Positions 7,459 to 64,000 of a stretch of DNA of 64,000 bases are shown piece by piece. How positions within the stretch are numbered: the stretch's first letter is position 1; each line of letters begins with the position of its first letter. The translations under genes were made by a program, and so were the position numbers. A model generated the notes under the pieces. That model saw only the letters and a program-made list of their open reading frames with translations, was not told the DNA's origin and did not search any database. Source of the stretch: Dictyostelium discoideum (taxonomy: Eukaryota); NCBI GenBank assembly GCA_000004695.1, contig CM000150.2, positions 2,496,001 through 2,560,000 on the forward strand, given 5' to 3'.

Positions 7459-7576
7459 TCTTTTTTATATGAAAAATGAAATAATCAAAAAAAGAGATTG
7501 TTGTTGTTGTTTGTTTTTTTCGATCTCTAATTAATTAATGACCTAATCTAGTAATTAAAATTTATTTATAACAAAT

Positions 7577-7649
7577 GCCCAGATAGCTCAGTCGGTAGAG
7601 CGCAAGGCTTTTAACCTTGTGGTCGGGGGTTCGAGCCCCCCTTTGGGCG
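7577..7649 (+). tRNA. tRNA-Lys (anticodon UUU)
   Basis: GCCCAGATAGCTCAGTCGGTAGAGCGCAAGGCTTTTAACCTTGTGGTCGGGGGTTCGAGCCCCCCTTTGGGCG. Cloverleaf with 7-bp acceptor stem (one G-T pair), D-arm GCTCAGTCGGTAGAGC, anticodon loop CTTTTAA, T-arm GGGGGTTCGAGCCCCCC, discriminator G. No intron. Confidence 0.9.
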
Positions 7650-7663
7650 AATTTTAAAATAAT

Positions 7664-52312: not shown

Positions 52313-55992
<3,680 letters not shown>

Positions 55993-56985: not shown

Positions 56986-58021
56986 ATGATAACAAATTTA
57001 ATTAATAAATATTTAATATCAACAAGATCATATTTATCAAGTGGTATTTTATTTATACTTTTAATATCAAGTTCAATAGCATATAGACAAACAAAACAAA
57101 TTGATATATGGTTTAGTTTATTTTGTTTTACAATTATATTTCAAAATTTTTGTTTTGCATATTTATTAAATTCATATTTAGATTATTTAACTGGATCAGA
57201 TTATGTAAAGAGTGAAATGGATAGAACACTATTCAAACATATAACATTGGGTCAATTGAGGGGATTCATAAAGATACCTTTGATTTTAAATGTACTACTT
57301 TTAATAATAACTTATAGATGGAAAGGGTTAAACACATTGTTAATGATTGCATTTTTAGATTTCTTACAAATTATTGGGGTTTGCATTTACTCACCATCAA
57401 AACACTATGCTATGGGTCATTTGGTTTTTAGCTTTGTACATTATATTAATATTTGGATTTTCTATTATTCAAATACTAAACAATTTCCATCATTCAATTC
57501 TTCCGATCCTTTCATTTATTATAGTTTTTATTTTTTACCTGTAATTCTTCAATCAATTCATGCAAATTATCATAGAGATATTGAAAATGATAAAAAATCT
57601 GGTATTTTAACAATTGCAATCTTATTAGGTAAAAAGTTTTCTTTAGTTTATTATTTTTTATTATATATTGGTAAGTAAAATTTTTATTTTAATAAAAAAT
57701 TATTTGATCAAAAAAAAAAATAAAAAATAAAAAAAAAAAAAAAAAAAAAAAACACATCCCCAATTCTCCACATACTCTCCCCCCACACGCACTAACCCCT
57801 TTTTTTTTATTTTTATTTTTTTTTTTATAGGTGGTTTGATTTATTTAATATTTTTAATGATAAAATTTAATAATATTTTCTTTTTATTACCATTTGCAAC
57901 CATATCATTAATTAATGAACTATATGGAAATATCGATTTATTAAATGTTCAAACAACTAAAATTCATTTTTTTTCTTTATTTTTATTTTCAATAGCAATT
58001 TTATTGGGTGGTAAAAAATAA
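56986..58021 (+). CDS. UbiA prenyltransferase-family-like polytopic membrane protein; exons 56986..57670, 57831..58021 (about 291 aa)
   Basis: Multiple TM helices. HANYHRDIENDKKSGILTIAILLG resembles the second Asp-rich motif of UbiA/MenA-type prenyltransferases (N..RDI..D...GK.TL...LG). A degenerate first motif is possible at LDYLTGSDYVKSEMDRT. GTAAGT donor and ttttttatag acceptor. Confidence 0.4.
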
Positions 58022-62656: not shown

Positions 62657-62738
62657 TTACATCAAAGACATCGTAGCAAAGTGGTCTAATGCGTCTGACT
62701 AGAAATCAGATCCCTTCGGGGGCGCAGGTTCGAACCCT
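62657..62738 (+). tRNA. tRNA-Ser (anticodon AGA)
   Basis: GACATCGTAGCAAAGTGGTCTAATGCGTCTGACTAGAAATCAGATCCCTTCGGGGGCGCAGGTTCGAACCCTGCCGATGTCG (82 nt). Anticodon loop CTAGAAA. Long variable arm (CCCTTCGGGGG), typical of class II Ser tRNAs. T-arm GCAGGTTCGAACCCTGC. Confidence 0.9.
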
Positions 62739-62882
62739 GCCGATGTCGATACTTTTTAAAAAGATGTCCCAAGTTCGGAAATTGATGCTAAATTTTACAA
62801 AAAATCTCCAATCTCTCTGGGTGTGTATTTGCACTCATTTGTATAGACAAACCCTCAATAGGCGAAAAATTCTCAGCATTAG

Positions 62883-63156
62883 TTAGATATGTTGTAAAAT
62901 ATAATATAGTTTAAAAAATTTAATACAATTGAATAATAAAAATAAAACCGTTTAACAAACACCGCCGAAAAGACACAAGGACATTCCTTGAAGGTCTGAT
63001 CACAGGTAAAAAAAAAAAAAAGTTAGATATGTTGTTATATAATATAGTTTAAAAAATTTAATACAATTGAATAATAAAAATAAAATCGTTTAACAAACAC
63101 CGCCGAAAAGACACAAGGACATTCCTTGAAGGTCTGATCACAGGTAAAAAAAAAAA
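62883..63156 (+). repeat. two tandem roughly 135-bp units, each ending in oligo(A); 3'-module-like units of a TRE3-type retroelement
   Basis: gttagatatgttg[t]aaaatataatatagtttaaaaaatttaatacaattgaataataaaaataaaa[c/t]cgtttaacaaacaccgccgaaaagacacaaggacattccttgaaggtctgatcacaggtaaaaaaaaaaaa occurs at 62883..63021 and 63022..63156. A third copy of the first 13 nt (gttagatatgttg) opens the RT fragment at 63157. Confidence 0.7.
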
Positions 63157-63157
63157 A

Positions 63158-64000
63158 GTTAGATATGTTGGTATACCTACTCAAAGATACTAAAAACAAA
63201 ATAAAGATCAACGACTTTTTAGTCAATGGAATAACAATCAGAAGAGGAACAAAACAAGGAGACCCAATATCACCAACAATCTTTGCTCTAGTTTTAGAAC
63301 CACTTCTAATAGATATCATCAATGATAATACAATCAAAGGCTTCACTCTACCAAATTCCAAATCATTAAAACTCACTGCATTTGCTGACGACATAGCAAC
63401 CTTTACAAACTCCACAGAAGAACTAATGAAAATTAATACTAAAATCCAAAAGTACTGCTCAGCAACATCATCATCGTTAAACAAAGAGAAAACAGTAATG
63501 ATAGCAATAGGAGATAAACCACACGATCTACCATTCCAAGAGAGTACAGTCCCAGAAAGATATCTTGGCCTCAATTTCACCAAAACAGGTTTAAATTCAA
63601 AATACAACACTTTAATCCAAGAAATGAAAAACAATCTAATCAAATGGAAATCACAAGCAATAACGATGAAGGCAAAGATGACAATTCTCAAAACATACGT
63701 TCTATCCAAATTAACATACCATCAATACATGGATAATCTAAATGAAGAACAAATTGAGGAAATCAATAACATGACCAGATGGTTCTTATTCTCCTCAGTT
63801 AAGAATACATATACAGAAGAGAGAAAATACAAAACTATGATGAAAATAGACAGAGCATATGCAGATTGGAAAGAAGGAGGCATAAAATTATGGGATATAG
63901 AACTAAGACATATAGCATTCAAAATCTGGTACATGAACAGGCTACTCCATAATAACTACAACAACAACAATACCTTACAAGAATGGTACATGGAGCAATT
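63158..64000 (+). CDS. reverse transcriptase fragment (C-terminal RT motifs) of non-LTR element, partial at both ends
   Basis: Frame is open for 281 codons to the window edge: LDMLVYLLKDTKNKIKINDFLVNGITIRRGTKQGDPISPTIFALVLEPLLIDIINDNTIKGFTLPNSKSLKLTAFADDIATFTNSTEELMKIN…. The minus-strand ORFs in the track here (63035..63709, 63722..63934) are antisense artefacts. Confidence 0.6.

What the first reader, a model, noticed from the sequence alone, without database searches (positions are those of the whole stretch)
62739..64000. TRE3-like element downstream of tRNA-Ser, built from tandem oligo(A)-terminated 3'-module units joined to a 5'-truncated RT at a 13-nt microhomology
Starting 145 bp after the tRNA, two nearly identical roughly 135-bp units, each ending in A(10-14), are followed by an RT reading frame that opens with the same 13 nt (gttagatatgttg). 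This looks like repeated target-primed insertions at one tRNA-associated site, each severely 5'-truncated, with template switching at microhomology. The units could also be internally deleted copies in which gttagatatgttg occurs both in ORF2 and near the 3' end. It is a compact record of insertion mechanics at a pol III target.
Basis: partly seen in the sequence, partly recalled or inferred. Interest (0 to 1): 0.5.

Follow-up and report, generated by a model that had tools for sequence, protein, structure and literature searches.

The report
Stacked TRE3 retrotransposon insertions behind tRNA-Ser
Three dead copies of a tRNA-targeting Dictyostelium retrotransposon (TRE3 type) landed one after another at the same spot behind a tRNA-Ser gene, each time duplicating the same 13 bases of host DNA; such TRE tandems are already described, so this is a tidy but ordinary example.

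Summary
GTTAGATATGTTG occurs three times (62882, 63022, 63158). Two 99%-identical units end in A14 and A12, and an open reverse-transcriptase frame follows.

The window is Dictyostelium discoideum, AX4 type. The units are the last ~113 nt of the 3' UTR of the same TRE3-like family as the RT fragment.

The 13-mer is neither ORF2 sequence nor a microhomology. Six other copies read ...AILLNLLK... (GATCCTACTAAACCTAC) at that position, and the 13-mer is absent from 2.3 kb of element sequence. It sits exactly where a target-site duplication should: directly after each oligo(A) and before each 5' junction. Its length matches the 13-16-nt duplications of other copies.

The units differ at their 5' ends, in tail length, and at the one shared polymorphic site of the module. 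They therefore came from different source RNAs.

Best reading: successive target-primed insertions reused the same staggered nick 134 bp downstream of tRNA-Ser(AGA).

TRE-TRE tandems from sequential targeting are published. Beyond the window the long copy has lost its 3' end, so a fourth 13-mer cannot be checked. Low novelty.

The parts
62667..62748 (+). tRNA-Ser(AGA) gene, the pol III target. Internal B box GGTTCGAACCC at 62727-62737; T5 terminator at 62753-62757.
   Evidence: ARAGORN; Rfam tRNA, 61.5 bits; sequence read directly.
62749..62881 (.). Native 3' flank of the tRNA gene (133 nt). It contains a B-box-like motif AAGTTCGGAAA at 62771-62781, a candidate external B box about 109 nt upstream of the insertion point.
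   Evidence: Single-copy among all sequence held. The first ~60-100 nt are alignable to the syntenic flanks of L003 and L004. The exB role is inferred from PMC5911963.
62882..62894 (+). 13-mer copy 1 (GTTAGATATGTTG): left target-site duplication of unit 1, contiguous with the native flank.
   Evidence: Counting the ambiguous flanking A and T, the direct repeat around unit 1 is up to 15 nt.
62895..63021 (+). Unit 1: a 5'-truncated TRE3-like copy holding only 4 A of the internal A-run, the 3'-terminal UTR module (to 63007) and A14 (63008-63021). Carries the C variant at the polymorphic site.
   Evidence: 99% identical to L001 12384-12506 and L002 11837-11961, which are the last bases of longer copies.
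63022..63034 (+). 13-mer copy 2: right duplication of unit 1 and left duplication of unit 2.
63035..63157 (+). Unit 2: a second 5'-truncated copy of the same module. It has a different 5' end (TTA TATAATATAG), the T variant at the polymorphic site, and an A12 tail (63146-63157).
   Evidence: 100% identical over 121 nt to L001 12385-12505; alignments.
63158..63170 (+). 13-mer copy 3: right duplication of unit 2, abutting the 5' junction of the long copy. It contains the ATG used by an automatic gene model in L009.
63171..64000 (+). 5'-truncated ORF2 (RT domain, C-terminal half onward) of a TRE3-like element. Homology to the family starts at 63172. The copy continues about 155 nt beyond the window and is then cut off.
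   Evidence: RVT_1. 97.5% identical to L001, 97.2% to L007 and 99.2% to L008 over 832 nt. Continuation seen in L009.

Best explanation
This is a TRE-TRE tandem: a stack of three dead-on-arrival copies of one TRE3-type non-LTR retrotransposon, made by successive target-primed reverse transcription events at the same position downstream of tRNA-Ser(AGA).

Proposed order of events:
1. The oldest copy, truncated inside the RT domain, integrated about 134 bp behind the tRNA.
2. Insertion leaves the tRNA-proximal flank and the left copy of the duplicated target unchanged, at the same distance from the pol III complex. The next integration nicked the primer strand at the same T^A step (CATT^AGTT) and the other strand 13-15 nt further on, at the old element's 5' boundary.
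3. That recreated the same 13-nt duplication without damaging the resident copy. It happened twice more: unit 2 first, then unit 1.

In both later events reverse transcription got only as far as the internal A-run of the 3' UTR, so only the terminal ~113-nt module plus oligo(A) was installed.

Shown here:
- the identity of the units and the RT fragment with one family;
- the absence of the 13-mer from that family;
- the repeat-flanked architecture;
- the different source variants of the two units.

Inferred:
- the order of events;
- reuse of both nick positions;
- the A-run as a stalling or dissociation point;
- B box / external B box (TFIIIC) as the ruler.
For: (1) The units are the 3' end of the RT's own family. 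In L001, L002, L007 and L008 the module follows the ORF2 stop, GTAGTAG and an A24-37 run, and is itself followed by oligo(A).

(2) The 13-mer is not element sequence.

(3) Each unit is bracketed by the 13-mer, directly after its oligo(A) and directly before its 5' end. Other copies of the family carry duplications of the same size: 14-15 nt (L001), 15-16 (L002), 13-16 (L007), 16 (L008). The primer-strand nick falls at a T^A step in every case.

(4) The units are independent. Their 5' ends differ (AAAATATAAT... against TTATATAAT...), as do their tails (A14 against A12). Their only core difference (C/T) falls on the one site that is a shared polymorphism among seven young copies: C in L002 and L008-A; T in L001, L007 and L008-B. 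A random post-duplication substitution would hit that site with that base about 1 time in 340.

(5) Position and orientation fit TRE3: 40-150 bp downstream, same orientation as the tRNA, measured from the B box or external B box (PMC5911963).

(6) The literature describes such tandems. [quoted passage not shown] (7) A second natural example is L007. A young copy's duplication abuts the 5' end of an older, more diverged copy that lies further from the tRNA.

(8) The direct repeat around unit 1 extends to 15 nt by including the first T of unit 2, which fits unit 1 being the younger of the two.
Against: - The long copy's 3' end is lost. In L009 it stops at element position ~1393 against a T36-39 run and an inverted TRE3 copy. 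There is no fourth 13-mer, so its own duplication cannot be shown.
- No clean pre-insertion allele was found. L003 and L004 are unoccupied at the syntenic tRNA-Ser, but their flanks are too diverged. Local alignment of the last 50-95 nt scores no better than shuffles (fraction of shuffles reaching the score 0.10-0.38).
- The 5' ~3 kb of a full-length element (5' UTR, ORF1, endonuclease) was never seen, so a 13-mer there is not formally excluded.
- Re-use of both nicks to within 1-2 nt in two or three events is more precise than the scatter of a few bp reported for TRE5-A.
Confidence: 0.78

Rival explanations
1. One short-unit insertion followed by tandem duplication. A single 5'-truncated module inserted next to the RT copy. 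Unequal sister-chromatid exchange or replication slippage between the two 13-mer/oligo(A) repeats then duplicated it, and the copies later diverged.
For: The units are 99% identical in the core. Most of their differences lie in slippage-prone A/T-rich stretches, namely the 5' end and the tail length. This model needs only one re-use of the nick pair instead of two.
Against: The single core substitution coincides with the only shared polymorphism of the family and gives the alternative family allele. The 5' ends differ by an indel plus a substitution. The repeat around unit 1 includes unit 2's first base, as expected for a fresh insertion.
Confidence: 0.12
2. Either the 13-mer is element sequence shared by ORF2 and the 3' region, so the units are internally deleted copies, or the array was made in one event by RT template switching at a 13-nt microhomology.
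For: The frame stays open through the 13-mer. One-event composites do seem to exist in this family: L008 has two copies inside a single 16-nt duplication.
Against: The 13-mer is absent from ORF2 at the homologous position in three DNA copies and three proteins. It is also absent, allowing up to 1 mismatch, from 2.3 kb of 3' element sequence including all 3' UTRs. The leftmost 13-mer is contiguous with single-copy host flank. In the L008 composite the inter-copy linker is not the flanking duplication, unlike here.
Confidence: 0.04
3. The ~113-nt module plus oligo(A) is a separate non-autonomous (SINE-like) retroposon. It would have a defined 5' end at the A-run and be mobilised in trans by TRE3 proteins that recognise its 3' hairpin, rather than being a random 5' truncation.
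For: Both units start within 3 nt of the same landmark, the internal A-run. The module's last ~48 nt are predicted to fold better than shuffles (z = -2.8). In TRE5-A a 3'-terminal hairpin in the 134-137-bp C-module is essential for retrotransposition (PMC3159450).
Against: The unit contains no A/B box or other promoter, and Rfam finds nothing in it. No solo units were seen in the other ~190 kb held, although those loci were chosen through RT proteins. Other truncated copies start at scattered positions, at about element positions 1708, 1832 and 1862.
Confidence: 0.08

Closest known systems
TRE3 elements and TRE-TRE tandems of Dictyostelium discoideum (Winckler/Glöckner groups; PMC5006619, PMC5391098, PMC5911963)
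   Same: A non-LTR element with an RT-bearing ORF2 and an oligo(A) tail. It lies 40-150 bp downstream of a tRNA gene in the tRNA's orientation. Successive copies are stacked head-to-tail without disrupting each other, and the host organism is the same.
   Different: Nothing essential. The subfamily (A, B, C or D) could not be assigned because no reference sequences are held. This locus adds that the same 13-nt duplication was regenerated each time, and that two of the three copies stop at the internal A-run.
5'-truncated, duplication-flanked L1-type insertions made by target-primed reverse transcription
   Same: Oligo(A) next to the 3' duplication, variable 5' truncation, 13-16-nt duplications, one or two extra bases at 5' junctions, and a T^A-type nick on the primer strand.
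   Different: Here the target is chosen by proximity to a pol III gene rather than by nick-site sequence alone, so the same site is hit repeatedly.
TRE5-A C-module (134-137-bp 3'-terminal module with an essential hairpin; PMC3159450)
   Same: A discrete ~110-135-nt terminal UTR module just before the oligo(A), with a predicted 3' hairpin. It is the minimal part retained by truncated copies.
   Different: No sequence relationship was tested or seen. The TRE3 module is separated from ORF2 by a long internal A-run. The function of its hairpin is untested.
Site-specific non-LTR elements that pile up at one target (R1/R2 in rDNA)
   Same: Repeated use of one nucleotide position by independent insertions.
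   Different: R elements recognise a DNA sequence. Here the position is presumably set by distance from a tRNA gene's B box, and the 'site' is ordinary AT-rich flank.

Membership tests
TRE3 (tRNA-gene-targeted non-LTR retrotransposons, 3' side) | Integrated 40-150 bp downstream of a tRNA gene | tested here: met
   133 nt lie between the tRNA-Ser 3' end (62748) and the duplicated target (62882). Related copies sit 45-71 nt downstream of tRNA-Gln, tRNA-Ser(UGA), tRNA-Asp and tRNA-Phe. The criterion is from PMC5911963.
TRE3 (tRNA-gene-targeted non-LTR retrotransposons, 3' side) | Same transcriptional orientation as the tRNA gene | tested here: met
   The tRNA, both units and the RT frame are all on the + strand. 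The same holds in L001, L002, L007 and L008.
TRE3 (tRNA-gene-targeted non-LTR retrotransposons, 3' side) | ORF2 with endonuclease, RT and zinc-finger domains | tested here: inconclusive
   RT is met (RVT_1, E = 2.8e-15). The endonuclease is missing through 5' truncation. The zinc-finger region lies beyond the window and is deleted at this locus. The relative P0054 is named 'Reverse transcriptase zinc-binding domain-containing protein' by UniRef, but Pfam found no domain in it.
TRE3 (tRNA-gene-targeted non-LTR retrotransposons, 3' side) | Oligo(A) 3' end and flanking target-site duplication | tested here: met
   Units: A14 and A12, each bracketed by the 13-mer. For the long copy this is not testable, because its 3' end is lost.
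TRE3 (tRNA-gene-targeted non-LTR retrotransposons, 3' side) | Sequence identity to a TRE3-A, -B, -C or -D reference, or clustering of ORF2 with TRE3 rather than TRE5 | not testable with these tools
   No reference TRE sequences are held. Protein hits carry only 'hypothetical protein' names. The supplement of PMC5006619 holds no alignment text.
TRE-TRE tandem by sequential targeting | Several TRE copies head-to-tail at one tRNA gene, with later copies not inserted into earlier ones | tested here: met
   Three copies are present, and each 5' junction is intact and preceded by the same duplicated target. Definition from PMC5391098 and PMC5006619 Table S2.
SINE-like non-autonomous retroposon | Own (pol III) promoter and a fixed 5' end shared by many solo copies | tested here: not met
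   The unit has no A/B-box motif and no Rfam match. The 5' ends of the two units differ by 2-3 nt. A genome-wide census was not possible.

The most novel reading that the evidence does not exclude
TRE3 integration at a given tRNA gene is precise to the nucleotide on both strands. Each insertion would then regenerate its own landing site, giving a self-renewing target 134 bp behind the gene. In addition, the A-run-bounded ~113-nt 3' module with its hairpin would be the minimal unit that the TRE3 machinery copies preferentially, a step towards a SINE-like parasite of TRE3.
Probability: 0.12. Interest if true: 0.45.

Novelty: already known. Interest (0 to 1): 0.2.

Why it matters
The locus shows, in one 420-bp stretch, how pol III-directed targeting lets a retrotransposon hit the same safe spot again and again without destroying earlier copies. 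It suggests that TRE3 nick positions at a given tRNA gene are reproducible to within 1-2 nt.

No retrotransposition assay for TRE3 turned up in the papers read, which describe experimental targeting work only for TRE5-A. Natural 'replicate insertions' like this one could therefore be mined genome-wide to measure targeting precision and the 5'-truncation hotspot at the internal A-run.

The phenomenon itself, TRE-TRE tandems, is already published, and the locus lies in the reference genome. The value is illustrative rather than a discovery.

Tried and rejected
**Reaching past the window end**
- Window ORFs 53132-55942 and 56986-57675 were not on record.
- A low-complexity query wasted one protein search.
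- What worked: the UbiA-like gene was spliced by hand, the exact sequence was found as DDB_G0269330, and its locus L009 was fetched.

**Fourth 13-mer.** The prediction that a fourth 13-mer follows the long copy's tail could not be tested, because that tail is deleted.

**Empty-site test.** L003-L006 are syntenic, and L003 and L004 are unoccupied. However, the flanks diverge within ~60-100 nt of the tRNA, and the alignment over the 13-mer is not better than shuffles. Result: inconclusive.

**Subfamily assignment (TRE3-A, -B, -C or -D).** There are no named hits. The Glöckner 2001 paper is not held under the PMC id tried, which was quoted from memory. The supplement has no sequences, and a search for 'Tdd-3' gave only a review.

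**Other ideas rejected**
- The 133-nt flank as a remnant of another element: it is single-copy in all held sequence.
- A structured RNA gene in the unit: Rfam finds only the tRNA.
- Twin priming as the origin of the inverted segment beyond the window: the oligo(A) is on the wrong side for that model.
- A TRE5 element at the window's other tRNA gene (tRNA-Lys-UUU, 7576-7650): the neighbouring ORF is ESF1, and there are no RT hits.

Full report
**What is in the sequence**

The window is AT-rich Dictyostelium DNA. A prenyltransferase-like protein spliced by hand from 56986-58021 is identical to DDB_G0269330 of D. discoideum AX4.

ARAGORN and Rfam place a tRNA-Ser(AGA) gene at 62667-62748 on the + strand. 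After 133 nt of flank, the 13-mer GTTAGATATGTTG occurs three times, at 62882, 63022 and 63158. None of 100 shuffles reached the observed number of matches.

Between the 13-mers lie two units whose cores are 99% identical. They end in A14 (63008-63021) and A12 (63146-63157). After the third 13-mer a reading frame runs open to the window end. It matches the C-terminal half of Pfam RVT_1.

An independent assembly of the same locus (L009, 0 mismatches over 10 kb) has the identical array.

**What the units are**

Protein hits to the RT fragment are unnamed Dictyostelium proteins, 94-99% identical. Fetching their loci gave four further copies of the same element family. Each lies just downstream of a tRNA gene and in its orientation:

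| Locus | Species | tRNA gene |
|---|---|---|
| L001 | D. citrinum | tRNA-Gln |
| L002 | D. discoideum | tRNA-Ser(UGA) |
| L007 | D. citrinum | tRNA-Asp |
| L008 | D. discoideum | tRNA-Phe |

Their ORF2 is 97-99% identical to the window's RT. In all of them the element ends in the same order: ORF2 stop, GTAGTAG, an internal run of 24-37 A, a ~113-nt module, then oligo(A).

The window's two units are 98-100% identical to that terminal module.

**What the 13-mer is**

At the ORF2 position where the window reads GTTAGATATGTTGGTATACCTACTC, L001 and L007 read TTCACAGCGATCCTACTAAACCTACTC. L008 aligns straight through this position. Three D. discoideum proteins (P0043, P0048, P0049) read FTAILLNLLKDTKNK where the window reads LDMLVYLLKDTKNK. 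Homology to the family begins at 63172.

No match to the 13-mer with up to 1 mismatch exists in any held element sequence. That sequence covers the last 2.3 kb of the element, including all 3' UTRs. The 13-mer is therefore not ORF2 sequence, not 3'-UTR sequence, and not a microhomology between them.

It is placed exactly as a target-site duplication is: immediately after each oligo(A) and immediately before each 5' junction. The leftmost copy is continuous with single-copy host flank.

The other copies carry duplications of the same size, and the primer-strand nick falls at a T^A step every time:

| Copy | Duplication (leading A's ambiguous with the oligo(A) tail) | Length (nt) |
|---|---|---|
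| L001 | (A)TTAATAAATTGAGG | 14-15 |
| L002 | (A)TCCATATAAAGAGCA | 15-16 |
| L007 | (AAA)TAAAAAATAATGA | 13-16 |
| L008 | GAAAAAGGTTCTTTTA | 16 |

TRE5-A duplications of 10-16 bp are reported (PMC9012585).

**Independent insertions or a duplication?**

The two units differ in three ways.

- Their 5' ends differ. Unit 1 keeps four A of the internal run and then matches the family exactly. Unit 2 starts TTA TATAATATAG.
- Their tail lengths differ (A14 against A12).
- They differ at one core position, C in unit 1 and T in unit 2.

In an alignment of eight modules, that position is the only shared polymorphism among the seven young copies. It is C in L002 and L008-A, and T in L001, L007 and L008-B. 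A random substitution after a duplication would land on that site with that base about once in 340 (1/113 x 1/3). Two different source RNAs are much more likely.

The direct repeat around unit 1 extends to 15 nt because it includes the first T of unit 2. This fits unit 1 having been inserted after unit 2.

**Mechanism**

*Shown:* three copies of one family, all 5'-truncated, stacked head-to-tail behind one tRNA gene and separated by the same duplicated 13 nt.

*Inferred:*

- The RT-bearing copy came first.
- Integration leaves the tRNA-proximal flank and the left duplication copy untouched. The position measured from the tRNA gene therefore stays available. It lies 154 nt from the internal B box and about 109 nt from the B-box-like AAGTTCGGAAA at 62771.
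- The next element nicked the same T^A step (CATT^AGTT), and nicked the other strand 13-15 nt on, at the boundary of the resident copy. This happened twice.
- In both later events cDNA synthesis ended at the internal A-run, which suggests a stalling or dissociation point.
- The last ~48 nt of the module are predicted to form a hairpin (-15.7 kcal/mol, z = -2.8). This recalls the essential 3' hairpin of the TRE5-A C-module (PMC3159450). Its role here is untested.

**Comparison with what is known**

[quoted passage not shown] L007 is a second natural example. A young copy's duplication abuts an older, more diverged copy that lies further from the tRNA.

The finding is thus an instance of a published phenomenon in the reference genome. 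The subfamily (A-D) could not be assigned with the tools available.

**Limits**

- Beyond the window (L009) the long copy stops at element position ~1393, roughly window-equivalent 64155. It stops against a T36-39 run, followed by the reverse complement of the ORF2 3' end. That segment is a convergent TRE3 copy sitting 67 bp downstream of a minus-strand tRNA-Lys(CUU). There is therefore no 3' module, tail or fourth 13-mer for the long copy, and its own duplication cannot be shown.
- The syntenic tRNA-Ser sites in L003 and L004 are unoccupied, but they are too diverged to serve as an empty-site control.
- The 5' ~3 kb of a full-length element was not seen.

**Verdict**

- Observation: confirmed.
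- Interpretation: partly supported. TRE3-like identity, 3'-module units and repeated truncated insertions are correct. 'Microhomology', 'template switching' and 'the 13-mer in ORF2' are not, because the 13-mer is the target-site duplication.
- Novelty is low. The locus is a neat natural record of how precisely TRE3 re-uses a site.

Noticed in passing
L009 17100-17546 (same locus, about 150-550 nt beyond the window end): The long RT copy is cut at element position ~1393 (…GAAAGAAATTT). It is joined to a T36-39 run plus the reverse complement of the ORF2 3' end. That segment is a convergent TRE3 copy 67 bp downstream of tRNA-Lys(CUU) on the minus strand. It ends at the internal A-run, without the 113-nt module and without a recognisable duplication. 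About 700 bp of the tRNA-Ser to tRNA-Lys spacer seen in L003 and L004 (912 bp) is missing. Either a deletion occurred between two convergent copies, or an insertion primed at a T^A step inside the older copy with loss of target DNA.
   Followed up: partly
L008 10361-13236 (D. discoideum, tRNA-Phe): Two TRE3 copies in tandem (2.3 kb and 0.5 kb) are enclosed by a single 16-nt duplication, GAAAAAGGTTCTTTTA. The linker between them (TAATCATAATATATCTAAAATTT + A15) is not that duplication. This suggests a one-event origin: a template switch, or retrotransposition of a read-through transcript from a tandem elsewhere.
   Followed up: partly
L007 10498-12640 (D. citrinum, tRNA-Asp): Another TRE3-TRE3 tandem. 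A young 1.8-kb copy lies next to the tRNA, and its duplication directly abuts an older 0.3-kb 5'-truncated copy that is only 75-85% identical to the family.
   Followed up: partly
window 63165-63167; L009 16157-17583: An automatic gene model in assembly GCA_054883475.1 (318 aa, RVT_1) starts at the ATG that lies inside the third 13-mer. The duplicated host target supplies the apparent start codon of a dead RT fragment, so this is an annotation artefact.
   Followed up: partly
L001 12353-12376, L002 11806-11840, L007 12174-12200, L008 12528-12561 and 13068-13095: All full 3' ends of this family carry a long internal A-run (24-37 A) between the ORF2 stop and the terminal module, so the module itself is flanked by two A-runs. 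Both window units and the minus-strand copy in L009 break at this run.
   Followed up: partly
window 62961-63007: The last ~48 nt of the 3' module are predicted to fold into a hairpin (whole unit -15.7 kcal/mol, z = -2.8 against shuffles). The module is almost invariant among copies, so covariation cannot be assessed.
   Followed up: partly
L003 14281-15349, L004 14905-15983, L005 13894-16276, L006 14638-17997: The syntenic tRNA-Ser(AGA) locus carries no copy of this family in four other assemblies. These are one labelled D. discoideum, D. cf. discoideum, D. citrinum and D. firmibasis. L003 and L004 look unoccupied (~0.9 kb to the next tRNA). L005 and L006 have ~2.2-3.2-kb spacers whose content was not examined. 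Intergenic DNA there is strongly diverged from the window, although the neighbouring proteins are ~95% identical.
   Followed up: partly
window 7576-7650: The second tRNA gene in the window, tRNA-Lys(UUU), has no TRE3-like sequence downstream. The ORFs upstream include a host ESF1 homologue rather than a TRE5, so this tRNA gene looks unoccupied.
   Followed up: partly
window 63035-63709 (- strand): A 224-aa ORF runs antisense to the RT fragment and unit 2. It is most likely a chance ORF in A-rich coding sequence.
   Followed up: no
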